A DNA stretch of 64,000 nt from Minisyncoccota bacterium (GCA_041662545.1 JBAZSH010000003.1:1250-65249); one strand, 5' to 3'. Positions 33,868 through 55,561 are shown, counted from the first letter of the stretch. Numbers and translations: made by a program. The notes: generated from the letters alone by a model not told the origin.

Positions 33868-35220
33868 TTATTTCAACTTTTCTAAAAGCTCTTGCGCCAC
33901 CCGTTCACTTGCTTTAGCATCCGATTTACCACCGCATTGTTCTTTTACGATTCGAGTCCGGCCTTCTTTATCAAGAGATGGGTCGGTCAGATAGCGATTT
34001 ATCCAATTTGTAAAATCGTCAACCTCGTCGACTTTACGGACACCACCGCTTCTTAGAATGTAACCTAAATGGTCGTAGCCGTATGAATAGACACCCAATA
34101 ATCCGTCTTTTGGTTTTCGGTGTAAGTTCACCATAATGATTGGTTTATCAAAAAGAGCGGCTTCGATGGCGATGGTTGAAGGTCCGGTAATGATTAAGTT
34201 GCTCCAGTAGAGTCCATTTATAAGCATGTCGTCATCTTCTCTGGTTACATCACGGTTGCCAGTTATCTTTTTGTCATATGCCATTCCCGGTCGGTCCAAA
34301 AACATTAGGGGTGGTGGGGAAAAGTTATCAAGACAACTTACTCTATCATTTGGCGGAAACCTGACAAAAATATTTTCGTCTCTCTTCGCTAGCATTTCAA
34401 TTACCAGTTGATCAGTGTCATTTTCATGTTGATACATATCGCCGATGGGTGCGTAAAAAATTAATTTTTTATCTGGGTTGGCGCCAATTTTTTTGAAAAA
34501 TTCATTGCGGGGTATTTTTTTTGATTTGATATAACGGTCATAGTGAGGAATGCCGACTATGAAGATTTTGTTTTCGGGCACTCCGCTGTAGCGGATAGCT
34601 TCATTCTTTAAGACACTGTTCCAAACCAAGAGCCGGTCAGGTATGACTTGAAGGATGCTATGAATGGTCAGATTGTCCCAGGAACGGATCATGCCAACAA
34701 CAGGAATCTTTCTCTCCTTGGCTTCTCGGACAAAGCAGATATCGTTTTCGTTTTGAACATCGGTGGCAAAAATCAAGGCGGGTTGATATTTGTTAAACAC
34801 CTCGTTAAAAAAGTAGTGAGGGGTGAGATGATAGTCAAGCCAGCGGAAAAAAGGCAGGGCAAATTTCAACCTCCCAATGTTTTGAGTGATATAGACAAAT
34901 AATACAGTGCGCCAGTTTTTTCTCATAGACCAGATCTGGTAGCGTTCACGAATTATAATACTTTCAGTTCGGAGCATAAGCCGAAACAATCTTTTGAAAA
35001 ACAGACCGAAGAATGTCTTACTCGGTTTTCCAGTGGTGACTCCTTCAATGATGACCCCTGGTTTACCAAAAGTTTTTTCGTAGTAATCTTTTTTGAAATC
35101 GGGCATAGCGATAACCACCTGGATTTTGTTGGCGACGAGAATATCCAGAATTTCTGTGGAAAGAATATTTCGAGAGATGATTGGTTGGAAGCTAGTTATG
35201 ATAATTGTTTTTTTCATCAT
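33868..35220 (-). CDS. TagF/CDP-glycerol glycerophosphotransferase-like GT-B protein (paralog 2 of 4)
   Basis: ALIFATDVQNENDICFVREAKERKIPVVGMIRSWDNLT, KKLIFYAPIGD, GPSTIAIEAALFDKPIIMV blocks shared with paralogs. Confidence 0.4.
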   Translation of the reverse strand: MMKKTIIITSFQPIISRNILSTEILDILVANKIQVVIAMPDFKKDYYEKTFGKPGVIIEGVTTGKPSKTFFGLFFKRLFRLMLRTESIIIRERYQIWSMRKNWRTVLFVYITQNIGRLKFALPFFRWLDYHLTPHYFFNEVFNKYQPALIFATDVQNENDICFVREAKERKIPVVGMIRSWDNLTIHSILQVIPDRLLVWNSVLKNEAIRYSGVPENKIFIVGIPHYDRYIKSKKIPRNEFFKKIGANPDKKLIFYAPIGDMYQHENDTDQLVIEMLAKRDENIFVRFPPNDRVSCLDNFSPPPLMFLDRPGMAYDKKITGNRDVTREDDDMLINGLYWSNLIITGPSTIAIEAALFDKPIIMVNLHRKPKDGLLGVYSYGYDHLGYILRSGGVRKVDEVDDFTNWINRYLTDPSLDKEGRTRIVKEQCGGKSDAKASERVAQELLEKLK

Positions 35221-35277: not shown

Positions 35278-36492
35278 ATGATTGGACTCATGTTATTCTC
35301 AAATTGCTTTTTAAAATCAAAAATTGTGAAGAATAATAAAATTAGGAAAATTTGTGTTTTTTCCGGTAAACGGGGCGGTTTTGGCGCCTATATCCCCTTA
35401 ATGCGACTTATTGAAAAAGACCCGGTGTTTCAGCTCCAAATAATTTTGGGGGACATGCACGGTTCCAACACTTTCGGTGATACAGCAAAAGAAGCCAAAA
35501 GGTTTTTTCCAAAGAGCAAAATTGTCATTATCAAGATGGGTGCCGGCCGTGGCGACTCACCGGTTATTAGAACGGAGAATCTTGGCACTTGCTTACACAA
35601 AGCCGCCGGTTTTTTGAGCAAACTTAATCCTGACATTTTAATGGTTCACGGCGACCGAGGGGAGCATTTAGTTATGGCTTTGGTTGCCCTTAATCTTGGG
35701 ATTCCGGTTTTTCACACTCAAGGCGGCGAAGTGTCCGGTAACATTGATGATGTTCAAAGACATGCCATTACCAAATTGGCCCACCTTCATTTTCCGGAAA
35801 CCGAAACTGCGAAGAAACGAATTGAGGTTTTAGGTGAAGAGTCGTGGCGGATTTGTGTGGCCGGCTCCCTTTATGTTGATAGAATTGTTCGAAGAATGTT
35901 TACCAATCCAGTAGAAGTACGAAAAAAATATGGCTTGAAACCCGAAGAAAAGTATTTTATTATCATTTATCACCCTGATACTTACTTGTCTCAAAAGGAA
36001 AATTATCGGGTAATGAAAAATGTTCTAACAGCAGTGGAGAGTTTTGGTTTGAGGAGCATTGTTATCTACCCCTGTTCTGACCCGGGTTATCAAGGGGTGA
36101 TTGACGCTATAGATGAAGTTAAAGAAAACTCCGATTTTTTAATTTACAAAAATATTGAGAATCTTGATTTTCTAGGATTACTCACCGACGCTGAAGCTTT
36201 AATTGGAAACTCTTCAACAGCTTTGGTGGAGGCGCCTTATTTGAAATTACCGGCTGTCAATGTTGGCAATCGACAGCTTGGTCGAGATCGGGAAGAAAAT
36301 GTTGCAGATGTTGAAACTAGTGTAATAAAAATCAAAAATAGGTTATTATATGTGACAAGCGATAAGCTTTTCAGAGAACAACTTAAAAAATGCGGTTATC
36401 GTTTGGGGAACGGTCGTGCTTCGGAGCAAATTTTAAAAGTTATCAGAGGCGTTTCCTTAGACGAAAAACTCTTGCGAAAAAAGTTAATATAA
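35278..36492 (+). CDS. UDP-N-acetylglucosamine 2-epimerase, NeuC-like (hydrolysing type)
   Basis: MVHGDRGEHLVMALVALNLGIPVFHTQGGEVSGNIDDVQRHAITKLAHLHFPETETAKKRI matches NeuC-type epimerase core. Confidence 0.7.
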   Translation: MIGLMLFSNCFLKSKIVKNNKIRKICVFSGKRGGFGAYIPLMRLIEKDPVFQLQIILGDMHGSNTFGDTAKEAKRFFPKSKIVIIKMGAGRGDSPVIRTENLGTCLHKAAGFLSKLNPDILMVHGDRGEHLVMALVALNLGIPVFHTQGGEVSGNIDDVQRHAITKLAHLHFPETETAKKRIEVLGEESWRICVAGSLYVDRIVRRMFTNPVEVRKKYGLKPEEKYFIIIYHPDTYLSQKENYRVMKNVLTAVESFGLRSIVIYPCSDPGYQGVIDAIDEVKENSDFLIYKNIENLDFLGLLTDAEALIGNSSTALVEAPYLKLPAVNVGNRQLGRDREENVADVETSVIKIKNRLLYVTSDKLFREQLKKCGYRLGNGRASEQILKVIRGVSLDEKLLRKKLI

Positions 36493-36509
36493 TTTAGTAT
36501 ATTTTATTT

Positions 36510-37190
36510 ATGAACCTGAAAGAAAAAGCCGACATCTCTAAGAATATTATTAAACTAGCCACCGAAGCTTACCCGAAAATTTTTGTGGCTTGCTCATTTG
36601 GTAAGGATTCACGAGTCCTTCTTGATTTGGCCATGCAAGTCAGGTCGGATATTACCGTTGCCGCTATTGATACCGGTTATGAATTTGAGGAGACAATTGA
36701 ATTTGGTAATTCTCTTAGCAAAGAATTGGGTTTTAAATTAATTTGGCTTAAACCATCAATCAAGGATGTGAAACGCATTGATAAAGAATATGGCGACAGT
36801 TTTATCAAGAACGACCAATACAAATGTTGCGAAATGAAAATCCCGGCAATTGAGCGATTTGTAACGAAACATCACGCTTGGATTACTGGTTTGCGTCGTG
36901 ACGAGACCGAATATAGGAAAGATACGATGATTGTTGAAACGGGAAAAGTGGCAAAAATTAACCCTCTGGCCTTTTGGAATAACGATGATATTTGGAACTA
37001 TATTCGCGAAAACAAACTTCGCTACCATCCACTTTATGACAAAGGTTATCCTTCTTTGGGTTGCAAGCCCTGTACTACTTCTGGAAAGGTAAGAGATGGT
37101 GGCGGTCGGCAAGGGCAGTTTGAAAGAGCGGGACGATTTGCCGGTACTAAAAATACTGGCGGTGAGTGTGGACTACATCTTAAAATCTAA
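36510..37190 (+). CDS. Phosphoadenosine-phosphosulfate (PAPS/APS) reductase family protein, CysH-like
   Basis: PP-loop CSFGKDS, conserved GCKPCT and C-terminal ECGLH motif characteristic of CysH-type sulfonucleotide reductases. Confidence 0.7.
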   Translation: MNLKEKADISKNIIKLATEAYPKIFVACSFGKDSRVLLDLAMQVRSDITVAAIDTGYEFEETIEFGNSLSKELGFKLIWLKPSIKDVKRIDKEYGDSFIKNDQYKCCEMKIPAIERFVTKHHAWITGLRRDETEYRKDTMIVETGKVAKINPLAFWNNDDIWNYIRENKLRYHPLYDKGYPSLGCKPCTTSGKVRDGGGRQGQFERAGRFAGTKNTGGECGLHLKI

Positions 37191-37192
37191 TT

Positions 37193-38395
37193 ATGAAAAC
37201 GGTGCGGTTAAAAAATAAATTGACGCCCGGGAAGAAGCGAAAAATTCTTATTTTGGGAGGTGACGGCTATTTAGGCTGGCCTACGGCCATGCATTTTTCA
37301 GCTTTGGGTTATGAAGTGGCAATTGCTGATAATCTTTCCAAGCGACTTTGGGAAGCCGAGTATGACGCCCAACCACTTTGGCAAATTCCCTCAATCAGAA
37401 GGCGAGGGCAATTATGGAAGAAAATATCAGGAAAAGATATAAAAATTTACATTGGCGATATTGCCAACAATCATCGTTTTGTTTACGAAATGTTTCGTGA
37501 ATTTCAACCGGATTCAATCATTCATTATGCTGAACAACCGTCAGCGCCTTTTTCTATGCACAGCCGAGAAAAGGCGGTTTTTACGCAGCACAACAATATT
37601 ATCGGCAATCTCAATGTACTTTTTGCTATGCAAAAATATTGTCCCGACGCCCATCTCGTTAAACTTGGTACTATGGGGGAATACGGCACACCGAACATTA
37701 CAATTGAAGAAGGTTGGCTTGAAGTTAAACATGGCGGTAGGAAAGACAGGATGCTTTATCCTAAACGGGCTGGTTCGTTTTATCACTTAACCAAAGTCCA
37801 CGATAGCAACAACATTGAATTTGCCGTTAGGATTTGGAAATTAAGGGCAACGGATCTTAATCAGGGTGTTGTGTATGGTATTGATACACCAGAAACTCTT
37901 CTTGATACGGAGCTTATGACCAGCTTCCATTACGATGAAGTTTTTGGGACGGTTTTGAATCGGTTTATCGCTCAAGCGGTAGTCGGCTTTCCTCTGACTG
38001 TTTATGGTAAAGGGGGACAGAAGCGAGGCTTTTTGAATATTAAAGACACTATTCAGTGTGTTGAATTAGCGATTAAAAATCCAGCCTTACCCGGCGATTT
38101 TAGAGTTTTCAACCAGTTCACCGAGTTGTTTACAGTTAATGATTTGGCGCAAAAAGTTTGCCAGGCAAGCAAGAAGCTTGGTTTGAATGTGAAAATTCAT
38201 GCTATTGATAATCCCCGAATAGAACAGGAGGATCATTTTTATAAAGCAAAAAACTCCGCCCTTTTATCACTAGGTCTTAAACCAAACTTTTTGACGGAAG
38301 CAACACTTATCGTAATGTTGCAGAAGGTCATTGCGATGAAAGATCATATTAACAAAAGTGTCATCAAACCCTCCATAAGATGGAAGATTCGGTAA
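37193..38395 (+). CDS. sqdB: UDP-sulfoquinovose synthase (SQD1/SqdB/Agl3 family)
   Basis: GGDGYLGWPTAMHFS, FQPDSIIHYAEQPSAPFSM, FTQHNNIIGNLNVLFAM, HLVKLGTMGEYGTPNITIEEG, SFYHLTKVHDS, ATDLNQGVVYG: consecutive blocks recognisable as SQD1 signature segments. Confidence 0.7.
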   Translation: MKTVRLKNKLTPGKKRKILILGGDGYLGWPTAMHFSALGYEVAIADNLSKRLWEAEYDAQPLWQIPSIRRRGQLWKKISGKDIKIYIGDIANNHRFVYEMFREFQPDSIIHYAEQPSAPFSMHSREKAVFTQHNNIIGNLNVLFAMQKYCPDAHLVKLGTMGEYGTPNITIEEGWLEVKHGGRKDRMLYPKRAGSFYHLTKVHDSNNIEFAVRIWKLRATDLNQGVVYGIDTPETLLDTELMTSFHYDEVFGTVLNRFIAQAVVGFPLTVYGKGGQKRGFLNIKDTIQCVELAIKNPALPGDFRVFNQFTELFTVNDLAQKVCQASKKLGLNVKIHAIDNPRIEQEDHFYKAKNSALLSLGLKPNFLTEATLIVMLQKVIAMKDHINKSVIKPSIRWKIR

Positions 38396-38402
38396 TAATT
38401 AT

Positions 38403-39116
38403 ATGAACAAGAAAGTTCTCGGTTTTATTCCGGCTCGTGGTGGGTCAAAAAGTATTCCGCGGAAAAATATTTTTCCTTTGGTGGGAAAACCTTTGATTGC
38501 TTACGCAATTGAAGCCCTCAAACACTCCCAGTTTGTCAACAGAATTGTAGTAAGTACTGATGATGAAGAAATTGCCGCCATTGCGAAAAAATTTGGGGCA
38601 GAAGTTCCATTTTTTCGCCCAAAAGAATTAGCTAAAGATACCAGCCGGGTTTTTGCCGCAATTAAATATACAATTAACAGATTAAAAAAAGAAGAGAAAT
38701 ATTATCCTGATTATGTTGTGACAATTCAACCGACCTCGCCCCTGGTTCAAACTAGTCAAATTGATGCCGCTCTCAAGTTGGTCTTTAAAAAGAAAGCCGA
38801 GTCGGTGGTGACAGTAAAAACTTTACCTCACCACTATCACCCTCATAACATCAGGAAAGTTAAAGAAGGAAAAACCAGTTTTTGGATGGAGCGGGAACAT
38901 TACAAATCCATCAACCGCCAACAGCGACCGGTCTTTTATGCTTTCGGTAATTTGTATGTTTCGCGGGTAGATTTAATAGAGCGGGAAGGCCACCTTGAAG
39001 GAAAAAATAATTATCAAATAGTAATTGACCATTTGAGCGCTCTTGATATTGACGATATTGATGATTTTAAAATTGTCGAGGCGTTGATTAAGGCGGGGAT
39101 TGTAAAAACTTCTTGA
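38403..39116 (+). CDS. Acylneuraminate (nonulosonate) cytidylyltransferase, NeuA-like
   Basis: LGFIPARGGSKSIPRKNIFPLVGKPLIAYAIEAL CMP-sugar synthetase N-terminal motif; 237 aa. Confidence 0.7.
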   Translation: MNKKVLGFIPARGGSKSIPRKNIFPLVGKPLIAYAIEALKHSQFVNRIVVSTDDEEIAAIAKKFGAEVPFFRPKELAKDTSRVFAAIKYTINRLKKEEKYYPDYVVTIQPTSPLVQTSQIDAALKLVFKKKAESVVTVKTLPHHYHPHNIRKVKEGKTSFWMEREHYKSINRQQRPVFYAFGNLYVSRVDLIEREGHLEGKNNYQIVIDHLSALDIDDIDDFKIVEALIKAGIVKTS

Positions 39117-40078
39117 TTTTAATGAAACTTTTGTATTACAAATGTCTTAAATTTCAACCAAAATCATTAGCTTTGCTTAAACGAAATTTTGAGATTATCT
39201 CGCTTAATAATCCGGGCAAAGACACCAAAAAACTTCTAGAATCGATCGAGATTTCTTTTGCGCCACTAGGTTTCTTTTTCAACCGGGAGAAAATTGACTC
39301 AATGCCTAAACTTAAAATCATTGCTTCCAATACTACTGGCTACCCGCACATTGATGTTGACTACGCCAAAACCAAAGGGATAAAAGTAATAACTCTTAAA
39401 GGAGAAAATAAATTTTTGGATACTATTACACCGACCGCTGAACTAACCTGGGGTTTGATCATTGCTTTGACTAGACACCTAATTCCAGCCAGTCGTTTCG
39501 TTCTTGGCGGTAAATGGGATCGACGGCCATTTGGCGGTCAAACGATGCTTTCTCGCCTAACACTTGGAGTTGTTGGTTTGGGGCGATTGGGAAAAATGGT
39601 GGCTGAATACGGCAAGGCCTTTAGAATGAAAGTTATTTATTACGATCCCTTTGTCAAAAGTGCTGACCCGGAGTTATTGAAAATGTCTAATCTTAAGTCG
39701 TTGGCGTCCAAAGCGGATATTATTACAGTTCATGTGCCGGCAGAAAAAGAAAACACCGGACTGGTCGGTAAATATGTTTTTGATAAAATGAAAAAGGGTT
39801 CATATTTCGTAAATACTTCACGAGCTGAACTCGTTGATCATCGAGCATTACTCCAAGCTCTTCGGTCCGGTCATTTAGCCGGTGCCGCCTTAGATGTTTT
39901 CACTGGTGAATTTGAAAGAGATATCAATCAAAAACTCAAAAAACATCCGTTATTAGATTACGCCAAGAGGCACAGCAATCTTCTCATTACCCCCCACATA
40001 GGTGGTTCTACACAAGACGCTTGGTTGGAGACAGAGCTTTTTACCATTAAGCGGATTATGGAATCTTTTAAAAAATAA
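39113..40078 (+). CDS. D-isomer-specific 2-hydroxyacid dehydrogenase family, NAD-binding
   Basis: GVVGLGRLGKMVAEYG Rossmann motif, catalytic-domain RxE/H pattern; paralog of 48844..49788. Confidence 0.65.
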   Translation: MILMKLLYYKCLKFQPKSLALLKRNFEIISLNNPGKDTKKLLESIEISFAPLGFFFNREKIDSMPKLKIIASNTTGYPHIDVDYAKTKGIKVITLKGENKFLDTITPTAELTWGLIIALTRHLIPASRFVLGGKWDRRPFGGQTMLSRLTLGVVGLGRLGKMVAEYGKAFRMKVIYYDPFVKSADPELLKMSNLKSLASKADIITVHVPAEKENTGLVGKYVFDKMKKGSYFVNTSRAELVDHRALLQALRSGHLAGAALDVFTGEFERDINQKLKKHPLLDYAKRHSNLLITPHIGGSTQDAWLETELFTIKRIMESFKK

Positions 40079-40079
40079 A

Positions 40080-41162
40080 ATGGCCAAGGATATTATTTTA
40101 GGAAAAGTCGGCAATAAAAAAATTATTATTGGGCCGGGGCGTGAACCGTTATTAATTGCTGAAGCTGGTGTGCTTACTTGGGGAGAAGTAAAGCGCGGTT
40201 ATATTTTTGTTGACGAGGCAAAAAAGGCGGGTCTCAAGCTTATTAAGTTCCAAGCTTTCAATGCCGACCATGTGGTTTCAAAGAGCGATTCGTTTTGGCA
40301 TAATCGTTTGAAGCAGAGGGAACTTAGTAAGGAAAATTTTTTTAAAATTAAGAACTATGCCGAATCGAAAGGTCTTCTAGCTTTTGCCACCACGCACAAT
40401 GAATATGATTTGGTGAATTTTGCTAAGGATGGAATGGCAGTGCTCAAGATTGGTTCGGGGGACAGCAATAATTTTAGGATGATTGATTTGGCCCTTGAAA
40501 CTGGAAAGCCGGTTATTGTGTCGCTGGGTTTAATGGATGAGAAAGAAACCGAAATTGTTTTGAAAAAGTACAGGAAGCATGCGGATAAAATAGTTTTTAT
40601 GTATTGCGTTACGCTTTATCCGACGCCACCGGAAGCGGTTGATTTGTCAATCTTGGGAAGATGGAGAAAAAAGTATCCAGAATATAATTTTGGTTATTCC
40701 GACCATGTTTTGGGAAAAGAAGTTGCAGTTGCCGCCGTGATGAATGGCGCTTCCATTATTGAAAAACATCTTTGTTTGCCGGCTGATAGGGTTAAGCCAA
40801 AACACAAGAGTTATGATATTATTGTCGCCCTTATCCCAGATGAGATGAAAAAGTTAAACGAGGACATCAAGAATGTCAACACAACTGGCGGGCAGTCTTT
40901 TGTTAGAGTTCATCGAGTTCCATCAAAACTCGTTAAGAAAAATATTTTATGGGCACGCAAATCAATCACGGCTTTTTCGGCCATTAAGAAAGGTACCAAG
41001 ATTAAAGCTAAACAACTGGTTTCGTGTCGGCCATTTGACTCTCGAAAAGGTCATATTTCTATTGAATTTTTTGACGATTTAGTTGGCACTACAGCCGTTC
41101 ATGATATAGTTGCTGGGTCTTTCATTACCAAAGATGACATTTTTGGTTTTTCAAAAAAATAA
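40080..41162 (+). CDS. Nonulosonic (sialic-acid-like) acid synthase, NeuB family with C-terminal SAF domain
   Basis: LLIAEAGVLTWGEV...AKKAGLKLIKFQAF TIM-barrel N-terminus resembling NeuB IIAEIG...A(G)ADA(V)KFQ; start trimmed to ATG 40080 after upstream stop. Confidence 0.6.
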   Translation: MAKDIILGKVGNKKIIIGPGREPLLIAEAGVLTWGEVKRGYIFVDEAKKAGLKLIKFQAFNADHVVSKSDSFWHNRLKQRELSKENFFKIKNYAESKGLLAFATTHNEYDLVNFAKDGMAVLKIGSGDSNNFRMIDLALETGKPVIVSLGLMDEKETEIVLKKYRKHADKIVFMYCVTLYPTPPEAVDLSILGRWRKKYPEYNFGYSDHVLGKEVAVAAVMNGASIIEKHLCLPADRVKPKHKSYDIIVALIPDEMKKLNEDIKNVNTTGGQSFVRVHRVPSKLVKKNILWARKSITAFSAIKKGTKIKAKQLVSCRPFDSRKGHISIEFFDDLVGTTAVHDIVAGSFITKDDIFGFSKK

Positions 41163-41165
41163 ATC

Positions 41166-42479
41166 ATGAAGACGATTTTTATTACCAGCTTTCATATCTT
41201 GATATCGCGCAACATTCTGGCGACGGGTATTTTGCCTTTGCTTGCTAATGGGGGTAGGCGAGTAGTTATTCTTTGCCCAAAAAAGAAGGAGGAATTTTTT
41301 CGGAAAGAGTTTGAAAAAGATGGAGTAATAGTTGAACCAATAGCGGCAAAATTAAATTGGCGGGATTTTATCTGCCGTTTTTTGTCATTGGCGTCTTTGC
41401 GGACAAAAACTCTCTGGCTTAAACGGCGGACAGAAATGAAGGGTGTTGGCGCAGTTTTCTCAGAAATTATGCCAGTTTCTTTGATGGGTTGGCTGACACG
41501 CCGATTAAGTCCGATTCTTACACCTAAGAATCGTTTTCAATCGCTTCTGGAAAAATATAAGCCGGAACTGATTTTTGCCACCGATGTTCAAAATGAATTT
41601 GATGTATCTTTGATGGAGGCCGCCAGAAAGCGAAGCATAAAAATTGTTGGTATGGCTCGGTCTTGGGATAATTTAACAGCGAAAGGTTTGTTGCGAATTA
41701 TTCCTGATGTCTTGTTGGTTAACAACGAAATTGTGAAGAGGGAAGCGATGGAGCTTCACGGTGTTCCAGCTGAAAAAATTCAGGTTGTCGGTTTGCCACA
41801 CTATGATAATTATTTTCAGACGCCAAAACTTTCTCGTTCGGAATTAACCGAAAAACTTGGCTTGAGCGCCGAGAAAAAATTTGTTTTATTCGCGCCGGTT
41901 GGCGATCGCTATCTTGCTAATAATTTCGTTGATAAAAATGTTTTAACTTTACTTGATAAAATTTTACCGGCCGATTGGGAAATTTTGGTTCGTTTGCCGC
42001 CGGCCGATTCGGTGAAAGATTTTGAGTCGGGAAATTTATCAGGGCGGGTAAAAGTCTATCGACCTGGTAGACATCTTGGTAATATTAAAAATACAGAACT
42101 TTCTGTTGTCGACGATGAGATTTTAATCGCCAGCATCAAATACACCGATTTACTTGTCGTTGGGCCATCTACGATGGTTATTGATGCGGCAATTTTTGAT
42201 AAGCCGGTGATTTTGATTGGTTTTGACGGGAGGGAAAATCGGCCGTATCTTGAAAGTATCCGTCGCTATTATGATTACAATCATTTCCAGCCGATTATTG
42301 AAAGTGGCGGCGCCCCGCTAGCCCGAAGCGAGGAGGAGTTTAGAAAATTTGTTGGGGCGTATCTTGCTAATCCAGCCATTGATCGAGCGGGGCGCCGCAA
42401 GATTGTTGAGTCAGAATGTCAGTTTACCGATGGTCAATCTAGCCAACGAGTAGTTAAAGAATTGGAAAAATTTCTATGA
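41166..42479 (+). CDS. TagF/CDP-glycerol glycerophosphotransferase-like GT-B protein (paralog 3 of 4)
   Basis: ELIFATDVQNEFDVSLMEAARKRSIKIVGMARSWDNLT, KKFVLFAPVGD, GPSTMVIDAAIFDKPVILIGF. Confidence 0.4.
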   Translation: MKTIFITSFHILISRNILATGILPLLANGGRRVVILCPKKKEEFFRKEFEKDGVIVEPIAAKLNWRDFICRFLSLASLRTKTLWLKRRTEMKGVGAVFSEIMPVSLMGWLTRRLSPILTPKNRFQSLLEKYKPELIFATDVQNEFDVSLMEAARKRSIKIVGMARSWDNLTAKGLLRIIPDVLLVNNEIVKREAMELHGVPAEKIQVVGLPHYDNYFQTPKLSRSELTEKLGLSAEKKFVLFAPVGDRYLANNFVDKNVLTLLDKILPADWEILVRLPPADSVKDFESGNLSGRVKVYRPGRHLGNIKNTELSVVDDEILIASIKYTDLLVVGPSTMVIDAAIFDKPVILIGFDGRENRPYLESIRRYYDYNHFQPIIESGGAPLARSEEEFRKFVGAYLANPAIDRAGRRKIVESECQFTDGQSSQRVVKELEKFL

Positions 42480-43846
42480 GCAAAAAAATCAAAACAATTT
42501 TCCTGACGATTTTTGAAGGAGTGGAAGCAAAAAATTTGTTGCGCACTTCTGTTTTACCAACCTTGCTCGCTGATCCAGCGGTACGGATTATTTTATTCAC
42601 AAAAAGCGAGGAAAAAGTCGCATATTACAAAAAAGAATTTTCTGACTCGCGATTGATTTATGAAGTAGCGCCCCGCCAGCCGATTCGCGGTTGGGATGCG
42701 ATTTTCGCCCAATTAAAATTTACTTTGCTTCGAACCGCGACCACCGATTTGAAACGGTTGTTGAATTACAAGCGAGAGAAAAACTTTTTTCGCTACTATG
42801 GCGGTGTGTTTGCCAATCGGCTTTTAGCTTGGTCCATTGTCAGGAAAATTGTTCGCTGGTTGGATTTTGTCTTGGTTCGCCAAGATTTTTACGCGCCGGT
42901 TTTTGAAAAATATCAGCCCGATTTGGTTTTTCTTGCCCATCTTTTTGATGAACCGGAAATTGCTTTGTTGCGGGAAGCGAAAAAACAAAAGGTAAAAACT
43001 GTTGGACTGGTCAATTCTTGGGACAAAACAACTGCCCGCTGTATTTGGCGACTGTTGCCCGATAAAGCTATTGTTTTCAATAATATCGTCAAACGGGAAC
43101 TTGTGGTGCACGATGAAGTTAAAGTAGAAAACATTTTTGTTTCTGGTCTGCCTCAATACGATATTTACTGGAACGCCAAACCAAGTCCGCGTGAAGAATT
43201 TTTTAATGCCATCGGTATTAGCTCCGATAAAAAACTTATCGTCTACGCGCCAATAGGTCAGGCTTTTGGCGGTTGCGATTTTGAAATGATTGATTTGTTA
43301 AGAAAACTTTTGGCTGAAGGAAAATTTGGCAATGACGCTGAACTTTTTGTTCGTTTCCAGCCCAATGATTTTTTTGAAAAATCAGAAATTGAGAAAAGAC
43401 CTGACCTAAAGTTTGATTACCCGGGCCGGCGTTTTGGCACGAAACGCGGTGTTGATTGGGATATGGACGAAAGAGACATCAACCAGTTAGTGGATACTTT
43501 GGCTCACGCTTCAATCTTTATTTCCTACGCTTCCAGTATTGTTATTGATGCGGCGGTTTTCGGAAAACCGGTAATTAATATTGGTTTTGAAATTAGTGAA
43601 AACTTGAGGCCAGAAAACAAACCGACTCAATATTATCAAACTGATCACTATAAAAATGTCTTAGCGACAGGCGCGGTCAGATTGGTCAAAAATGTTTCTG
43701 AACTCGTTGAATGGACAAAAAAATATTTGGCGGGCAATTTTTCTGATAGGGGAACTCGGGAGCGATTGATAAAAGAACAGTGCCAATTTACCGACGGCAA
43801 ATCTGGTGAGCGAATTGGCAGGTTTATTCTTGAATTAATTAAATGA
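42476..43846 (+). CDS. TagF/CDP-glycerol glycerophosphotransferase-like GT-B protein (paralog 4 of 4)
   Basis: DLVFLAHLFDEPEIALLREAKKQKVKTVGLVNSWDKTT, KKLIVYAPIGQ, YASSIVIDAAVFGKPVINIGF; ATGA overlap with paralog 3. Confidence 0.4.
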   Translation: MSKKIKTIFLTIFEGVEAKNLLRTSVLPTLLADPAVRIILFTKSEEKVAYYKKEFSDSRLIYEVAPRQPIRGWDAIFAQLKFTLLRTATTDLKRLLNYKREKNFFRYYGGVFANRLLAWSIVRKIVRWLDFVLVRQDFYAPVFEKYQPDLVFLAHLFDEPEIALLREAKKQKVKTVGLVNSWDKTTARCIWRLLPDKAIVFNNIVKRELVVHDEVKVENIFVSGLPQYDIYWNAKPSPREEFFNAIGISSDKKLIVYAPIGQAFGGCDFEMIDLLRKLLAEGKFGNDAELFVRFQPNDFFEKSEIEKRPDLKFDYPGRRFGTKRGVDWDMDERDINQLVDTLAHASIFISYASSIVIDAAVFGKPVINIGFEISENLRPENKPTQYYQTDHYKNVLATGAVRLVKNVSELVEWTKKYLAGNFSDRGTRERLIKEQCQFTDGKSGERIGRFILELIK

Positions 43847-44859
43847 CCAAAAGAATTTTTATTACCGGCATCGCTGGTCAAGATGGATCTTATTTATCGG
43901 AATTTTTGGCCAAAAAGAAATGCCAAATTTTTGGTTTGACTAATCAAAAATATTCCGATAACGCGGTTTCAATGGAGGCGATAAAAAAGCTTGGTGACCA
44001 GGTTGTTTTAATTGATGGTGATATTGTTGATACTGGTTTACTAACGAAAATTTTTAAGGATATAAAACCGCACGAAATTTATAATTTGGCAGCAATTTCC
44101 AGTGTGGGTGAGTCCTTCAAGATTCCCGAAAAAGTGATGGAGATTAATTTTTACGCTTTTAAAAGATTGGTTGATGAGGCAATAGCTGTTGTGCCGAAGG
44201 TTAGAATTTATCAAGCGTCGTCGAGTGAAATGTTTGGTAAAGTCCCAGCGCCGCAGAATGAAAAAACAGATTTTAGGCCAGTTAGTCCTTACGGTGAATC
44301 AAAACTTCGTGCTCACAGGGAAGTTGTCTTGGAATATCGTAATAAAAAAGGTATTCATATTTGTTCTGGAATTATGTTTAATCACGAATCGCCACGGCGA
44401 GGTGAAAACTTTGTTACTCAAAAAATTGTTACCGATTTATCTAAAGTAAAACTTGGTTTGCTTGACCATATTGAATTGGGAAATTTGGATGTGGAAAGGG
44501 ATTGGGGTTTTGCCGGTGATTATGTAAAAGCAATGTATTTGATTTTAAACCACAGTAAACCCGATGATTATGTGATTGCTACTGGCAAAAGTCATACCGT
44601 ACGGGATTTCGTGAAGGAAGCCGCGAAAAATCTTGGTTTGAAAATAAAATGGCGCGGGCAGGGCGAGCGGGAGGAAGCAGTTGATAACAATGGAAAAATT
44701 TTGGTAAAAGTTAATCCGATTTTTTATCGTCCAAAAGAACTCGGCTCAACCTTTGGCGACAGCGCCAAAGCGCGGAAAATTTTGGGCTGGAAACCCGAAG
44801 TAAATTTTGTGGGATTGGTAAAAATGATGACGGCGGCAGCTCTAAAGCGCCATGTTTGA
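43843..44859 (+). CDS. gmd: GDP-mannose 4,6-dehydratase (second copy)
   Basis: [40 protein letters not shown]; paralog of 19032..20036. Confidence 0.8.
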   Translation: MTKRIFITGIAGQDGSYLSEFLAKKKCQIFGLTNQKYSDNAVSMEAIKKLGDQVVLIDGDIVDTGLLTKIFKDIKPHEIYNLAAISSVGESFKIPEKVMEINFYAFKRLVDEAIAVVPKVRIYQASSSEMFGKVPAPQNEKTDFRPVSPYGESKLRAHREVVLEYRNKKGIHICSGIMFNHESPRRGENFVTQKIVTDLSKVKLGLLDHIELGNLDVERDWGFAGDYVKAMYLILNHSKPDDYVIATGKSHTVRDFVKEAAKNLGLKIKWRGQGEREEAVDNNGKILVKVNPIFYRPKELGSTFGDSAKARKILGWKPEVNFVGLVKMMTAAALKRHV

Positions 44860-45835
44860 TTACTCAAAAACAAAAAAAGAAGAAATTAGTTGTAACCTTT
44901 GCGGTAGGAATGATTTTTCTGTTATCGCCAGAAAATCAAAAAATAATTTACCGGTGGTGACGGTAATGTGCCGAAAGTGTTCTTTAATCTATATTAATCC
45001 GCGAATGGTCAGTGAAGAATATGACAATTATTACAAATATTTTTACCGAGTAGACAGAAATACAATTAAAGGCACGACAGCTGATACTGAATTGGAAAAG
45101 AATTTTGAAAATGCCAGAAAATTTGGTCTAGCGCTTGGTCGGCGGTATCAAGAGTTTTTTAAACCCGGTTTGACGATTGACGTTGGTTCTTCCACCGGCG
45201 GCGTGCTCTATGGTTTGCGAGAGGCGATGCCGACTTTAAAAATCTTGGGTATTGAGCCGTCGGTAGCGGAATCAGAATTGGCAAGGAATCATGGAGTGCC
45301 AACCAAAACCATTTTATTTGAAAATTTTCGTGATAACTTACCCGAAGCGCCGGCCAACATTTTTTGCGTTCAGAGTTTGAATCATCTTTTGGATCCCAAG
45401 GGTTTTATGACTTGGGCTTACCAAACTTTGATTGACGGCGGTTCGCTGTTTTTGGCGGTGAAAAATTTTCGGTATCAAGCGCGCCGCGCCGGTTCAATAT
45501 CGGCTGGAGTTCAGATTGACCACCCTTATATGTTTACACCCGAAACCCTACGAGCAATGGTTGAGTCCGTTGGTTTTAGAATAGCAGTTTTTGAAGTTGA
45601 TGAAGGTAAAAGTCAGAATGAATTGTTAGAACAAAGAGCCGAGGGTTTGCCAAGACATCATATTCGCGTGGTGGCGGTGAAAGACAATAATTCAAATAAA
45701 GTCCAAATAGTTTTGCCCAATTTTTGGGCTCGGTTTAAACTTCGGTTGGCGCTTAGTTGGCCGATTTTGAAGTTGGTTTATCTAGCCAAGTATTCCCATT
45801 GGGGGGCTTGGCAAAAATCAAAGATTGTAGTATAG
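44852..45835 (+). CDS. SAM-dependent methyltransferase with N-terminal zinc-ribbon
   Basis: CNLCGRN...CRKCS Cys4 ribbon followed by TIDVGSSTGGVLYGL motif I. Confidence 0.5.
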   Translation: MFDYSKTKKEEISCNLCGRNDFSVIARKSKNNLPVVTVMCRKCSLIYINPRMVSEEYDNYYKYFYRVDRNTIKGTTADTELEKNFENARKFGLALGRRYQEFFKPGLTIDVGSSTGGVLYGLREAMPTLKILGIEPSVAESELARNHGVPTKTILFENFRDNLPEAPANIFCVQSLNHLLDPKGFMTWAYQTLIDGGSLFLAVKNFRYQARRAGSISAGVQIDHPYMFTPETLRAMVESVGFRIAVFEVDEGKSQNELLEQRAEGLPRHHIRVVAVKDNNSNKVQIVLPNFWARFKLRLALSWPILKLVYLAKYSHWGAWQKSKIVV

Positions 45836-45843
45836 TGTTGGCA

Positions 45844-48839: not shown

Positions 48840-48843
48840 TTAT

Positions 48844-49788: not shown

Positions 49789-49805
49789 GCTGGTATATTG
49801 GTGGG

Positions 49806-55335: not shown

Positions 55336-55409
55336 GGGCGATTAGCTCAGCTGGTTAGAGCGTGCGATTCACATTCGCAAGGCCACAGGTTCGATTCCTG
55401 TATCGCCCA
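55336..55409 (+). tRNA. tRNA-Val, anticodon CAC, no encoded CCA
   Basis: Acceptor GGGCGAT/ATCGCCC, D-arm GCTC-AGCTGGTTA-GAGC, anticodon stem TGCGA/TCGCA loop TTCACAT, T-arm ACAGG-TTCGATT-CCTGT, discriminator A. Confidence 0.8.
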
Positions 55410-55413
55410 TTGT

Positions 55414-55447: not shown

Positions 55448-55468
55448 CCTGCCCGCCATTGCCAGAGC

Positions 55469-55539: not shown

Positions 55540-55561
55540 AGGCAAAGGCTATGGCAGGCGG

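What the first reader, a model, noticed from the sequence alone, without database searches (positions are those of the whole stretch)
36510..38395. PAPS/APS reductase (CysH-like) gene immediately upstream of UDP-sulfoquinovose synthase: a self-contained sulfite-to-sulfosugar pair
SQD1-family enzymes condense sulfite with UDP-glucose to make UDP-6-sulfoquinovose. The ORF at 37193..38395 carries consecutive SQD1-signature blocks (GGDGYxGW, HLVKLGTMGEYGTPNI, SFYHLTKVHDS, ATDLNQGVVYG). The ORF at 36510..37190, 2 nt upstream, has the PP-loop, GCxPCT and C-terminal ECGLH motifs of CysH-type sulfonucleotide reductases, whose product is sulfite. The pairing suggests sulfite is generated specifically for sulfoquinovose synthesis within a glycan locus, not for sulfur assimilation. 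That would imply a sulfoquinovose-containing surface glycan, known from Sulfolobus N-glycans (Agl3) and SQDG lipids but not from CPR-type bacteria. No ATP sulfurylase or APS kinase is visible in this window.
Basis: partly seen in the sequence, partly recalled or inferred. Interest (0 to 1): 0.8.

Follow-up and report, generated by a model that had tools for sequence, protein, structure and literature searches.

The report
Sulfite-fed sulfosugar genes inside sialic-acid-like operon
A tiny-genome (CPR) bacterium carries a sulfite-making enzyme fused into an operon with a sulfosugar synthase and a sialic-acid-like sugar pathway; this gene set recurs across many bacteria, points to an undescribed sulfonated cell-surface sugar, and has one relative whose operon encodes the whole route from sulfate.

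Summary
ORF 36510-37190 is a CysH-type sulfonucleotide reductase with the Fe-S cysteines of APS reductases. ORF 37193-38395, 2 nt downstream, is a full-length SQD1-family enzyme (E 1e-147 to Arabidopsis SQD1) with the catalytic signature intact. The window is from a Candidatus Paceibacterota (CPR) MAG and holds no sat, cysDN, cysC or sulfate transporter.

The pairing is not chance. All 13 untruncated CPR species-representative loci with a close CysH relative have an SQD1 homolog nearby (directly downstream in 12). One Falkowbacteria operon reads NeuC-MT-NeuA-CysH-CysD-CysN-SQD1-NeuB, a full sulfate-to-sulfosugar route without an APS kinase.

The pair is not self-contained. It sits inside a nonulosonic-acid (NeuC/NeuA/NeuB) gene set that travels with this SQD1 clade in CPR, Alphaproteobacteria and unassigned higher-GC metagenome contigs. 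Classical sulfolipid-type SQD1/SqdB genes never show this. No conventional glycosyltransferase co-travels, only TagB/BFO_1060-like putative nonulosonic-acid transferases.

The clade also lacks Arg101, which is essential in Agl3, and has never been characterised. Whether the sulfosugar is used as sulfoquinovose or converted into a 9-sulfo nonulosonic acid is unresolved. I found no description of either arrangement in the searchable literature.

The parts
36510..37190 (+). CysH-type sulfonucleotide reductase, 226 aa (MFA6273122.1). Predicted [4Fe-4S] APS reductase and the sulfite source.
   Evidence: PF01507 E 8e-45. NF002537 183.5 bits against a 154 cutoff, TIGR00434 165.4 against 165.1. Best PDB matches are Mtb CysH 7lhr and P. 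aeruginosa APS reductase 2goy. Cys106/107, Cys185/188 and the ECGLH Cys220 are present, and 108 of 120 homologs keep all motifs.
37193..38395 (+). SQD1-family sulfosugar-nucleotide synthase, 400 aa (MFA6273123.1). Belongs to the 'P/TSxH' clade (Pro116, Ser244, His246 in place of SQD1 Arg101, Arg229, Asp231).
   Evidence: E 1e-147 to 1qrr over the full length. NF041015 E 5e-135, 450 bits, but below its 575 cutoff. Thr160, Met161, Gly162, Glu163, Tyr164, Tyr197, His198 and Lys201 are conserved. Clade-specific substitutions are shown.
35278..36492 (+). NeuC_A, a hydrolysing UDP-HexNAc 2-epimerase of the SQD1-linked nonulosonic-acid set A.
   Evidence: TIGR03568 316.5 bits against a 235.9 cutoff. 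Best PDB match is LegG 5xvs, E 7e-56. Orthologs lie next to SQD1 in 19 of 24 loci and form a clade of their own.
38403..39116 (+). NeuA_A, a CMP-nonulosonate synthetase-like cytidylyltransferase of set A.
   Evidence: PF02348 E 6e-29. Best NCBIfam match is PseF at 168.7 bits, below its 205.7 cutoff. Best PDB matches are NeuA 9ftb and 6ifd, about 1e-28. Co-occurs with SQD1 in 21 of 24 loci.
39122..40078 (+). HADH_A, a D-2-hydroxyacid dehydrogenase (PGDH-like) of unknown role. The ORF tool also gives a TTG start at 39113.
   Evidence: PF02826 E 1e-49. Present in 8 of 24 SQD1-linked loci. A paralog accompanies set B at 48844-49788.
40080..41162 (+). NeuB_A, a divergent nonulosonate synthase (PEP-condensing) of set A.
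   Evidence: PF03102 E 7e-47. TIGR03569 188 bits, below its 399.65 cutoff. Best PDB match is N. meningitidis NeuB 1xuu, 1.5e-33. NeuB-family genes occur near SQD1 in 20 of 24 loci.
41166..42479 (+). TagF/TagB-like GT-B protein, a candidate CMP-nonulosonate transferase.
   Evidence: PF04464 E 6e-15. NF046086 BFO_1060 family E 4e-13, below cutoff. BFO_1060 orthologs are required for Pse/Leg transfer in Tannerella (PMC5420450).
42476..43846 (+). Second TagF/TagB-like candidate nonulosonate transferase.
   Evidence: PF04464 E 1e-11. NF046086 E 3e-15.
33868..35220 (-). Third TagF/TagB-like candidate transferase, divergently transcribed from NeuC_A across a 57-nt spacer.
   Evidence: PF04464 E 6e-6. 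NF046086 E 1e-16. Spacing.
43843..49788 (+). Context in the same gene array: a Gmd-like SDR, a methyltransferase, and a second paralogous nonulosonic-acid set B (NeuB_B 45844-46962, NeuC_B 46952-48127, NeuA_B 48102-48839, HADH_B 48844-49788).
   Evidence: Sets A and B are 30-34% identical and fall in separate tree clades.

Best explanation
CysH (36510-37190) and the SQD1-family enzyme (37193-38395) form a dedicated sulfonation step inside a nonulosonic-acid (NulO) operon of a surface-glycan island of about 40 kb.

Proposed mechanism:
1. APS is reduced by the Fe-S-type CysH to sulfite.
2. The SQD1-type SDR oxidises C4 of a UDP-hexose, eliminates water to the 4-keto-5,6-ene, adds sulfite at C6 and reduces C4 back. 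This gives a UDP-6-deoxy-6-sulfo-hexose.
3. The sulfosugar ends up in a glycan built with the co-inherited NeuC_A/NeuB_A/NeuA_A enzymes and the TagB/BFO_1060-like transferases.

The APS comes from elsewhere in this genome. In a Falkowbacteria relative, CysD and CysN are encoded in the same operon.

Shown here: the family assignments, the catalytic motifs, the conserved gene linkage across lineages, and a complete cysDN-cysH-SQD1 operon in a relative.

Inferred: that sulfite is the nucleophile for this uncharacterised clade, which UDP-sugar it uses, and the fate of the product.

Two fates are about equally likely on present evidence:
(a) UDP-sulfoquinovose is used directly as a glycosyl donor.
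(b) A UDP-6-sulfo-HexNAc is hydrolysed and 2-epimerised by NeuC_A, condensed with PEP by NeuB_A and CMP-activated by NeuA_A, giving a 9-deoxy-9-sulfo nonulosonic acid.
For: Identities. The catalytic signature [ST]MG...Yx3K, specific to sulfoquinovose synthases, is retained.

CysH has the CC...CxxC and ECGLH motifs.

Operon: gaps of -4 to 17 nt within set A, -26 to 17 nt over the whole array to 51977, and no convincing intergenic terminator.

CysH-SQD1 linkage: all 13 untruncated non-Acidobacteriota species-representative loci have both genes, directly adjacent in 12. Two more end at a contig edge just after CysH. The 5 Acidobacteriota loci have CysH alone. L038 and L047 add two metagenome cases.

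Falkowbacteria L118: NeuC-MT-NeuA-CysH-CysD-CysN-SQD1-NeuB. CysD TIGR02039 442 bits against 396.6, CysN TIGR02034 494 against 336.1, and no APS-kinase domain.

No sulfite reductase appears in the loci that carry gene-level Pfam annotation.

NulO linkage: 16 of 28 P/SH-type metagenome loci have a NulO gene within 5 kb, against 0 of 29 Arg-type or P/RD-type loci (Fisher p 5e-7). The linkage is also seen in Alphaproteobacteria L030 and L031.

Unbiased clustering finds NeuA, NeuB, NeuC, CysH, methyltransferases and TagF-like as the co-travelling families.

SQD1-linked NeuC/NeuB/NeuA copies mostly form their own clades, apart from second copies in the same loci.
Against: No APS source (sat, cysDN) and no sulfate transporter is in the 64-kb window, and the rest of the genome could not be searched.

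The enzyme scores below the NCBIfam equivalog cutoff (450 against 575). It has Pro at the position of Arg101, whose alanine mutant is inactive in Agl3 (PMC4388408). No member of this clade has been characterised.

More distant CPR CysH relatives sit in glycan loci without SQD1: L115 in a pseudaminic-acid cluster, and L117 beside an APS kinase and sulfotransferases. CysH in CPR glycan loci is therefore not exclusively an SQD1 partner.

The trees are neighbour-joining without support values, and the loci are not phylogenetically independent.
Confidence: 0.75

Rival explanations
1. Plain sulfoquinovose glycan. SQD1 makes UDP-sulfoquinovose from UDP-glucose, a transferase in the island adds sulfoquinovose as an ordinary residue, and the NulO genes make a separate sugar of the same glycan. 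The linkage reflects a conserved SQ-plus-NulO glycan motif.
For: - The protein is 55% identical to Arabidopsis SQD1, which uses UDP-glucose.
- All characterised family members use UDP-Glc (PMC4388408, PMC8987622).
- Sister subclades of the same P/TSxH clade sit beside GT21/GT2 glycosyltransferases or Wzx/Wzz genes, which implies direct use of a UDP-sugar donor.
- Only one residue (Arg95) distinguishes NulO-linked from GT-linked enzymes, and I infer it lies outside the sugar pocket.
- NeuC-type enzymes are only known to act on 2-acetamido sugars (established knowledge).
- The window has many GT4/GT2 genes at 11.8-27 kb.
Against: - No conventional GT family co-travels with SQD1 in more than 2 of 24 loci.
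- SQD1 lies directly beside or between NeuC/NeuA/NeuB in many gene orders and in several phyla.
- Compact locus L046 has only BFO_1060/TIGR04396-like transferases nearby.
- No SqdD homolog lies near any P/SH-type SQD1. SqdX was not used as a query.
Confidence: 0.38
2. Sulfonated nonulosonic acid pathway. The SQD1-type enzyme sulfonates C6 of UDP-GlcNAc. NeuC_A releases 6-deoxy-6-sulfo-ManNAc, NeuB_A condenses it with PEP to 9-deoxy-9-sulfo-Neu5Ac, NeuA_A makes the CMP-sugar, and TagB/BFO_1060-like enzymes transfer it.
For: - Tight, permuted interleaving of SQD1 with NeuC/NeuA/NeuB across CPR, Alphaproteobacteria and higher-GC metagenome contigs.
- In L118 the genes cysH-cysD-cysN-SQD1 lie between NeuA and NeuB.
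- Set-A NulO enzymes mostly form orthologous clades co-inherited with SQD1, distinct from set B in the same genomes.
- Set A has no other sugar-modifying enzyme that recurs across loci, apart from methyltransferases and the HADH of unknown role. Without SQD1 it would look redundant with set B.
- Only NulO-type transferases co-travel.
- The whole clade has lost Arg101, Arg229 and Asp231, which are conserved in UDP-Glc-using enzymes.
- By analogy (established knowledge), the legionaminic-acid pathway feeds a C6-modified nucleotide-HexNAc through NeuC-, NeuB- and NeuA-like enzymes, and animal NANS accepts ManNAc-6-phosphate.
Against: - No such sugar is reported in the searched literature.
- There is no evidence that any SQD1 enzyme accepts UDP-GlcNAc.
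- The R101P, R229S and D231H changes are shared with GT-linked sister enzymes.
- NeuC_A's similarity to LegG is matched by NeuC_B, so it is not diagnostic.
- Loci L003, L007 and L010 show no NeuB within the available flanks (7-10 kb).
Confidence: 0.37
3. The SQD1-like enzyme is not a sulfonating enzyme here. It acts as a 4,6- or 5,6-dehydratase that supplies a deoxy-sugar precursor for the NulO pathway, and CysH is an unrelated assimilatory gene.
For: - Agl3 makes UDP-glucose-5,6-ene without sulfite (PMC4388408).
- The clade lacks Arg101, which is essential in Agl3.
- The NCBIfam score is below cutoff.
- Alphaproteobacterial and higher-GC metagenome loci have no adjacent CysH.
Against: - CysH adjacency is conserved in CPR, and CysD/CysN are inserted directly between CysH and SQD1 in L118.
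- The sulfoquinovose-synthase-specific TMG motif is retained, not the D/E acid-base pair of dehydratases.
- No sulfite reductase lies nearby to make assimilation sensible.
- Proteobacteria normally have housekeeping sulfite, so they would not need a dedicated CysH (established knowledge).
Confidence: 0.08

Closest known systems
SQD1/SqdB UDP-sulfoquinovose synthase with SQD2/SqdX or SqdD (sulfolipid SQDG pathway of plants, cyanobacteria, Rhodobacter and Sinorhizobium)
   Same: Same fold and full-length homology (55% identity to Arabidopsis SQD1). Same NAD-binding GxxGxxG motif, catalytic Thr/Tyr/Lys, His183 and TMG signature. The presumed chemistry is also the same: sulfite addition to a 4-keto-5,6-ene.
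   Different: Arg101, Arg229 and Asp231 are replaced by Pro, Ser and His. There is no SqdD next door, whereas L032 and L034 have SqdD and L080 and L109 have an apparent SqdX-type GT4. The partners here are NeuC/NeuA/NeuB and CysH. The gene sits in a glycan island and not a lipid operon. The sulfite source is encoded alongside, which is not seen in any Arg-type locus sampled.
Agl3 of Sulfolobus acidocaldarius (sulfoquinovose for the archaeal N-glycan)
   Same: An SQD1-family enzyme that supplies a sulfosugar for a surface glycan and not a lipid.
   Different: Agl3 has the essential Arg101 (R101A is inactive) and uses UDP-Glc (PMC4388408). I did not examine its gene neighbourhood here, and I know of no cysH or NulO genes linked to it. 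It is archaeal, and this one is bacterial (CPR).
Legionaminic-acid pathway (LegB/PglF dehydratase, then LegG hydrolysing 2-epimerase, LegI synthase, LegF CMP-synthetase)
   Same: The architecture is an SDR acting at C4/C6 of a nucleotide-HexNAc, followed by NeuC-, NeuB- and NeuA-like enzymes. NeuC_A's best solved relative is LegG.
   Different: Set A has no aminotransferase or acetyltransferase. The SDR is SQD1-type and not a 4,6-dehydratase. The product would carry a C9 sulfonate instead of being 9-deoxy. This comparison is an analogy only and was not tested.
Assimilatory [4Fe-4S] APS reductase CysH (M. tuberculosis, P. aeruginosa, B. subtilis)
   Same: Same domain, the CC...CxxC cluster ligands and the C-terminal ECGLH nucleophile. 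It scores above the NF002537 cutoff.
   Different: It is not in a cys regulon with sulfite reductase. Here it is embedded in a glycan operon next to SQD1. It scores below the TIGR02055 APS-reductase subfamily cutoff (155.7 against 235.3).
Tannerella forsythia Tanf_01245 / TFUB4_00887 / BFO_1060 nonulosonic-acid transferases
   Same: A TagB-like GT-B domain, encoded beside NulO biosynthesis genes.
   Different: The match is weak and partial (E 1e-13 to 1e-17, well below the 200-bit cutoff). There are four paralogs in the window. The donor and acceptor are unknown.

Membership tests
UDP-sulfoquinovose synthase (SQD1/SqdB/Agl3) | Full-length homology to the SQD1 structure and an extended SDR with a GxxGxxG NAD site | tested here: met
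   E 1e-147, residues 16-398 aligned to 2-383 of 1qrr. GGDGYLG at residues 22-28.
UDP-sulfoquinovose synthase (SQD1/SqdB/Agl3) | Catalytic Thr145, Tyr182, Lys186, His183 and the [ST]MG...Yx3K signature, plus Glu148/Tyr149 | tested here: met
   Thr160, Met161, Gly162, Glu163, Tyr164, Tyr197, His198 and Lys201 are conserved. The signature is as given in PMC8987622.
UDP-sulfoquinovose synthase (SQD1/SqdB/Agl3) | Arg101 in the EQRSAP motif (the Agl3 R101A mutant is inactive) | tested here: not met
   Pro116 (AEQPSAP). All 120 closest homologs have Pro, while all 32 Arg-type sequences aligned, including Arabidopsis SQD1 and the Sinorhizobium and Marinovum SqdB, have Arg.
UDP-sulfoquinovose synthase (SQD1/SqdB/Agl3) | Score at or above the curated NCBIfam equivalog cutoff (NF041015) | tested here: not met
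   450.4 bits against a cutoff of 575.
UDP-sulfoquinovose synthase (SQD1/SqdB/Agl3) | Genomic pairing with a sulfoquinovosyl transferase (SqdX/SQD2, SqdD or Agl-type) | tested here: not met
   No SqdD homolog lies near any P/SH-type SQD1. SqdX itself was not used as a query. No conventional GT family recurs. Arg-type controls do show the pairing.
UDP-sulfoquinovose synthase (SQD1/SqdB/Agl3) | Catalyses UDP-Glc + sulfite to UDP-sulfoquinovose | not testable with these tools
   This needs an enzyme assay. The SQD1 structure paper was not available, and no coordinates could be inspected to place Pro116, Ser244 and His246.
Sulfonucleotide reductase CysH, APS-reductase subtype | PAPS_reduct domain and a score above the CysH equivalog cutoff | tested here: met
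   PF01507 E 8e-45. NF002537 183.5 bits against 154, TIGR00434 165.4 against 165.1.
Sulfonucleotide reductase CysH, APS-reductase subtype | C-terminal ECGLH catalytic cysteine | tested here: met
   ECGLH at residues 219-223.
Sulfonucleotide reductase CysH, APS-reductase subtype | Four Fe-S ligand cysteines (CC...CxxC) that distinguish APS from PAPS reductases | tested here: met
   Cys106/107 and Cys185/188. Best PDB relatives are the Fe-S enzymes 7lhr and 2goy. The L118 operon has CysDN but no APS kinase.
Sulfonucleotide reductase CysH, APS-reductase subtype | Score above the TIGR02055 APS-reductase subfamily cutoff | tested here: not met
   155.7 bits against 235.3.
Sulfonucleotide reductase CysH, APS-reductase subtype | Assimilatory context (sulfite reductase, cysteine synthesis) | tested here: not met
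   None in the window. None in the loci that carry gene-level Pfam annotation.
Nonulosonic-acid biosynthesis (NeuC/NeuB/NeuA) | Hydrolysing 2-epimerase, PEP-condensing synthase and CMP-synthetase encoded together | tested here: met
   NeuC_A TIGR03568 316.5 bits against 235.9. NeuB PF03102 E 7e-47. CTP_transf_3 E 6e-29. PDB relatives are LegG, NmNeuB and NeuA.
Nonulosonic-acid biosynthesis (NeuC/NeuB/NeuA) | NeuB and NeuA score above the equivalog cutoffs for a known NulO (Neu5Ac, Pse) | tested here: not met
   NeuB_A 188 bits against 399.65. NeuA_A 168.7 against 205.7. The NulO made is therefore undefined.

The most novel reading that the evidence does not exclude
The SQD1-type enzyme is the first step of a previously unknown nonulosonic-acid pathway. 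UDP-GlcNAc plus sulfite gives UDP-6-deoxy-6-sulfo-GlcNAc. NeuC_A converts this to 6-sulfo-ManNAc, NeuB_A (with PEP) to 9-deoxy-9-sulfo-N-acetylneuraminic-type acid, and NeuA_A to the CMP-sugar. My calculation puts the free acid at about 373.07 Da, which is Neu5Ac plus SO2.

This C-sulfonated 'sialic acid' would be displayed on the surface of CPR bacteria, some Alphaproteobacteria and the organisms behind the higher-GC metagenome contigs. CPR genomes encode their own APS-to-sulfite supply, and in one case the sulfate-to-APS step as well, within the operon.
Probability: 0.37. Interest if true: 0.9.

Novelty: new variant of a known kind. Interest (0 to 1): 0.7.

Why it matters
Known C-sulfonated sugars are essentially limited to sulfoquinovose, in photosynthetic membrane lipids and a few archaeal N-glycans.

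This work points to a widespread, conserved bacterial module in which an SQD1-type enzyme is wired into a sialic-acid-like pathway. Genome-reduced CPR bacteria spend scarce coding capacity on a private sulfite supply for it. That makes three things directly testable:
1. Whether CPR cell surfaces carry sulfonated sugars. This bears on how these episymbionts attach to hosts and evade phages.
2. What the uncharacterised Arg101-less SQD1 clade actually makes.
3. The old open question of how sulfite is delivered to SQD1-type enzymes in vivo. A translationally coupled APS reductase offers a natural model for this.

If the product is a sulfonated nonulosonic acid, it would be a new class of microbial sialic-acid mimic and a new organosulfonate source in groundwater and other environments.

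It also has practical value for annotation. NCBI labels these proteins only as 'NAD-dependent epimerase/dehydratase family protein'.

Tried and rejected
1. I suspected that Pro-for-Arg101 marks NulO-linked enzymes and signals a switch to UDP-GlcNAc. I rejected it as a specific marker. All P/TSxH-clade enzymes share it, including those beside GT21/GT2/HlyD or Wzx genes. Only Arg95 is specific to the NulO-linked set.

2. NeuC_A's best PDB match to LegG looked like support for a C6-modified substrate. The control shows NeuC_B matches LegG equally well, so it is not discriminating.

3. Motif scans for Sat, APS kinase and CysN found none in the window or in loci L001-L029. The APS source was found only later, in L118 (CysDN), and an APS kinase in L117.

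4. The SQD1 structure paper (PNAS 1999, PMC23906) is not held. I therefore could not establish what Arg101, Arg229 and Asp231 do in the active site.

5. The TauE/SafE permease inside the module (L116) turned out to be a single genome, identical to L011. It is not a general feature.

6. The 369-aa protein without a Pfam hit next to CysH in L115 is not a novel sulfonating enzyme. It is a distant TagF/BFO_1060-like protein.

7. Viral auxiliary cysH genes are common (PMC11310336). Nothing suggests prophage context here, because the gene is in a conserved chromosomal operon. I did not pursue this further.

8. Literature searches for sulfoquinovose with Patescibacteria, cysH with UDP-sulfoquinovose synthase, nonulosonic with sulfoquinovose, sqdB with neuB, and nonulosonic acid with Patescibacteria returned nothing relevant.

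9. The Rfam scan found only four tRNAs and no riboswitch near the operon.

10. I did not run structure prediction. At 55% identity to a solved structure it would add nothing, and model coordinates cannot be inspected.


Full report
OBSERVATION

They are separated by 2 nt, reading TAA-tt-ATG.

The 400-aa protein aligns end to end with the crystal-structure sequences of Arabidopsis SQD1 (1qrr and 1i24, E about 1e-147). It also matches the NCBIfam UDP-sulfoquinovose synthase model at E 5e-135, although its 450 bits fall below the curated cutoff of 575. GalE- and RmlB-type models score only 20-40 bits.

The 226-aa protein is a CysH:
- PF01507 at E 8e-45.
- NF002537 at 183.5 bits, above its 154 cutoff.
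- Best solved relatives are M. tuberculosis CysH and P. aeruginosa APS reductase.
- It has the four Fe-S ligand cysteines (Cys106/107, Cys185/188) and the C-terminal ECGLH nucleophile.

By established knowledge, those features mark APS-preferring reductases and not PAPS-preferring ones.

The proteins are MFA6273122.1 and MFA6273123.1 of a 'Candidatus Paceibacterota bacterium' MAG, which is CPR/Patescibacteria.

WINDOW CONTEXT

I annotated the large ORFs of the window.
- Positions 1-11.7 kb and 52-64 kb hold housekeeping genes: FtsH, MurJ, ThyA, DHFR, SHMT, ArgRS, then Fmt, Def, enolase and GatB.
- Positions 11.8-52 kb form a glycan island. It holds GT4 and GT2 genes, Gmd, an aminotransferase, several methyltransferases, a Wzx-like and a Wzy-like protein, and four TagF-like proteins.

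There is no ATP sulfurylase, APS kinase, CysDN, sulfate permease or sulfite reductase. A motif scan agrees.

The finding lies in a tightly packed co-directional array running from 35278 to 51977. Gaps are -4 to 17 nt within set A and -26 to 17 nt over the whole array, and no convincing intergenic terminator is seen. The gene order is NeuC_A, CysH, SQD1, NeuA_A, a 2-hydroxyacid dehydrogenase, NeuB_A, two TagF-like genes, a Gmd-like SDR and a methyltransferase. A second, paralogous set follows: NeuB_B, NeuC_B, NeuA_B and another 2-hydroxyacid dehydrogenase.

So the pair is embedded in a nonulosonic-acid (NulO, sialic-acid-like) operon.

IS THE CYSH-SQD1 PAIRING REAL?

A scan of one genome per GTDB species with CysH returned 20 loci at 63-73% identity.
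- All 13 non-Acidobacteriota loci that were not cut by a contig end have an SQD1 homolog in the same module. In 12 it is directly downstream of CysH, and in L010 NeuC lies between them.
- Two more loci end immediately after CysH.
- The five Acidobacteriota loci have CysH alone.

Two metagenome contigs add further cases.

The decisive locus came from a reciprocal search with NeuC_A. In Candidatus Falkowbacteria (PFAR01000027.1, locus L118) the array reads TagF-like, NeuC, methyltransferase, NeuA, CysH, CysD, CysN, SQD1, NeuB.
- CysD scores 442 bits on TIGR02039 against a cutoff of 396.6.
- CysN scores 494 bits on TIGR02034 against a cutoff of 336.1.
- There is no APS-kinase domain.
- The SQD1 gene had gone uncalled only because of a 72-N masked stretch.

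That single operon encodes sulfate to APS to sulfite to sulfosugar. It confirms both the dedicated role of CysH and its predicted APS specificity. No sulfite reductase appears in the loci that carry gene-level Pfam annotation.

WHICH SQD1?

Agl3 mutagenesis shows that Arg101 (motif EQRSAP) is essential (PMC4388408). The window protein has Pro at this position (AEQPSAP), as do all 120 closest homologs.

To place this in context I used reference sequences from classical sulfolipid operons (Sinorhizobium and Marinovum sqdB-sqdD(-sqdC)), apparent cyanobacterial-type sqdB-sqdX loci (L080 and L109) and 80 metagenome loci. The family divides as follows:
- Arg-type enzymes with EQRSAP and NRxDYD.
- A P/TRxD clade.
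- A P/TSxH clade, with R101P, R229S and D231H. The window enzyme belongs here.

The sulfoquinovose-synthase signature [ST]MG...Yx3K (PMC8987622), together with His183 and Glu148/Tyr149, is retained throughout. No P/TSxH member appears to have been characterised. This enzyme works like an SQD1, but it fails two membership criteria: Arg101 and the curated cutoff.

THE NULO LINKAGE

Among metagenome loci with at least 3 kb of flank, 16 of 28 P/SH-type genes have a NeuA, NeuB or NeuC gene within 5 kb. The figure for Arg-type and P/RD-type genes is 0 of 29 (Fisher p 5e-7, not corrected for relatedness).

The linkage holds in several groups:
- CPR.
- Alphaproteobacteria MAGs from Hyphomicrobiales and Rhodospirillales, where SQD1 is followed directly by NeuB.
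- Unassigned metagenome contigs of higher G+C (57-58%) with a compact NeuB-NeuC-HADH-NeuA-SQD1 array.

Gene order is permuted between lineages. Examples are NeuC|SQD1|NeuA, CysH|SQD1|NeuB and NeuA|HADH|SQD1|NeuB|NeuC. The membership stays the same.

I also clustered all ORFs within 8 kb of SQD1 in 24 non-redundant loci, without any prior labels. The co-travelling families are NeuA (21 loci), NeuB (20), NeuC (19), CysH (14), SAM methyltransferases (13), TagF-like (12) and the 2-hydroxyacid dehydrogenase (8). No conventional GT2 or GT4 family recurs in more than two loci.

The TagF-like proteins, and three proteins of about 470 aa in L046, hit the BFO_1060 and TIGR04396 families. BFO_1060 orthologs are TagB-domain proteins that are genetically required to add pseudaminic- and legionaminic-acid derivatives in Tannerella (PMC5420450).

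Neighbour-joining trees of NeuC, NeuB and NeuA place most SQD1-proximal copies from all lineages together. They fall apart from the second copies found in the same loci. Sets A and B in the window are only 30-34% identical. SQD1 therefore travels with its own orthologous NulO gene set.

EXCEPTIONS AND LIMITS

An embedded subclade of P/TSxH genes (L052, L053, L077 and others), plus L048, L058 and L070, has no NulO genes. These sit beside GT21 or GT2 glycosyltransferases, HlyD-type proteins or Wzx/Wzz genes. In those lineages the product is evidently used as a UDP-sugar donor.

Only one residue (window Arg95) separates NulO-linked from GT-linked enzymes, and I infer from its position after the NAD-binding strand that it lies outside the sugar pocket. 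Sequence therefore gives no sign of a different sugar substrate in the NulO-linked set.

More distant CPR CysH relatives occur without SQD1:
- In L115 (Microgenomates), inside a pseudaminic-acid cluster.
- In L117 (Magasanikbacteria), as a 209-aa form lacking the ECGLH tail, next to a CysQ-like phosphatase, an APS kinase and three sulfotransferases.

These show that CPR glycan islands use activated sulfate in more than one way. CysH there is not exclusively an SQD1 partner.

I could not search the rest of this MAG, could not inspect structure coordinates and could not read the SQD1 structure paper.

MECHANISM

The best-supported model has a confidence of about 0.75. APS is made elsewhere in this genome, or by CysDN in cis in Falkowbacteria. 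The Fe-S CysH reduces it to sulfite. The SQD1-type SDR adds the sulfite to C6 of a UDP-hexose through the 4-keto-5,6-ene intermediate. The sulfosugar is then destined for a NulO-containing surface glycan.

Two fates remain about equally likely.

(a) UDP-sulfoquinovose is transferred as such. In favour: the enzyme is 55% identical to UDP-Glc-using SQD1, sister enzymes feed glycosyltransferases, and NeuC-type enzymes are only known to work on 2-acetamido sugars.

(b) The enzyme acts on UDP-GlcNAc, and NeuC_A, NeuB_A and NeuA_A convert the product to a CMP-9-deoxy-9-sulfo nonulosonic acid. In favour: the tight and permuted interleaving of genes, the co-inherited set-A orthologs, the absence of any co-travelling conventional glycosyltransferase, the placement of cysH-cysD-cysN-SQD1 between NeuA and NeuB in L118, and the apparent redundancy of set A with set B otherwise. 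By analogy, the legionaminic-acid pathway passes a C6-modified nucleotide-HexNAc through the same three enzyme types, and animal NANS accepts ManNAc-6-phosphate (established knowledge, not tested here).

A third reading has the enzyme acting as a mere dehydratase with CysH unrelated. It is unlikely, at about 0.08, given the cysH and cysDN linkage and the retained TMG signature.

One speculative point: the 2-nt coupling of CysH and SQD1 might reflect sulfite channelling, or direct transfer from the CysH thiosulfonate intermediate. That would bear on the unresolved question of the in vivo sulfur donor of SQD1-type enzymes, which PMC4388408 notes as open. Nothing here tests it.

NOVELTY

Both gene families are well known, and JGI already labels these two proteins correctly. 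The following appear to be undescribed in the searchable literature:
1. A dedicated APS reductase, and in one case CysDN as well, coupled to an SQD1-type enzyme in CPR glycan operons.
2. The cross-phylum association of an Arg101-less SQD1 clade with its own NeuC/NeuB/NeuA set.

I rate this a new variant of a known kind, with interest 0.7. If the sulfonated nonulosonic acid reading is correct (probability about 0.37), it would be a new class of sugar.

Noticed in passing
window 39122-40078 and 48844-49788: Each of the two nonulosonic-acid gene sets carries its own PGDH-like D-2-hydroxyacid dehydrogenase. The same family recurs in 8 of 24 SQD1-linked loci, including Alphaproteobacteria and higher-GC metagenome contigs. 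I know of no role for such an enzyme in NulO biosynthesis.
   Followed up: partly
window 28085-29473, 33868-35220 (-), 41166-42479, 42476-43846: Four paralogous TagF/TagB-like proteins with weak matches to the BFO_1060 family and TIGR04396. Together with two NulO pathways, this suggests a NulO-rich or poly-NulO surface polymer. L046 has three such genes beside the same module.
   Followed up: partly
window 43843-44859: A Gmd-like SDR (TIGR01472 341 bits, below its 415 cutoff) and a methyltransferase precede NulO set B. This mirrors the SQD1-type SDR in set A, so each NulO set may have its own C6-modifying SDR.
   Followed up: no
L118 12927-17019 (Candidatus Falkowbacteria PFAR01000027.1): CysH-CysD-CysN-SQD1 lie contiguously between NeuA and NeuB. 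The SQD1 gene is not called in the public annotation because of a 72-N stretch at 16055-16126.
   Followed up: yes
L115 7247-11848 (Microgenomates MHDF01000007.1): CysH is embedded in a pseudaminic-acid cluster (a PseB equivalog, DegT, NeuB, NeuA-like, TagF-like) with no SQD1. An adjacent 299-aa protein has a sulfotransferase-like RSGST P-loop but no family hit. The sulfite acceptor here is unknown.
   Followed up: partly
L117 5012-10630 (Magasanikbacteria WJJZ01000006.1): A CysQ-like phosphatase, an APS kinase and a 209-aa CysH-like protein lacking the C-terminal ECGLH tail sit beside three Sulfotransfer_1 genes. This looks like a PAPS-based O-sulfation glycan locus in a CPR genome. Nine of the 120 CysH homologs lack the ECG[LI]H tail, and most of them are this 209-aa form.
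   Followed up: partly
L116 13005-13751 (Uhrbacteria JACOZF010000008.1, identical to L011): A TauE/SafE-family (TSUP) anion permease lies between SQD1/methyltransferase and NeuA inside the module. It was seen in only one genome. L011, the same sequence, is labelled 'uncultured Gammaproteobacteria', so MAG taxon labels in this set are unreliable.
   Followed up: partly
L030 5801-7881 and L031 3795-5960: The alphaproteobacterial versions of the SQD1-NulO module also carry a Sulfotransfer_1 gene and a radical-SAM/SPASM enzyme (L030) or a B12-binding radical-SAM enzyme (L031).
   Followed up: no
L053 11276-12463; L048, L058 and L070 downstream of SQD1: A sister subclade of the Arg101-less SQD1 enzymes is paired with GT21-type (ceramide-glucosyltransferase-like) or GT2 enzymes and HlyD-type proteins. 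This suggests uncharacterised bacterial sulfoglycolipids or exported sulfo-polymers.
   Followed up: partly
window 55336-55672: Three tRNA genes lie at 55336-55409, 55469-55539 and 55602-55672. The mechanical ORF 55508-56155 overlaps two of them, so its N-terminal part is probably not coding.
   Followed up: no
window 13813-14682 and 23090-24490 (-): A short (289-aa) UDP-glucose/GDP-mannose dehydrogenase-like ORF lacks the C-terminal domain and may be a fragment. Separately, there is a GT2-methyltransferase fusion protein.
   Followed up: no
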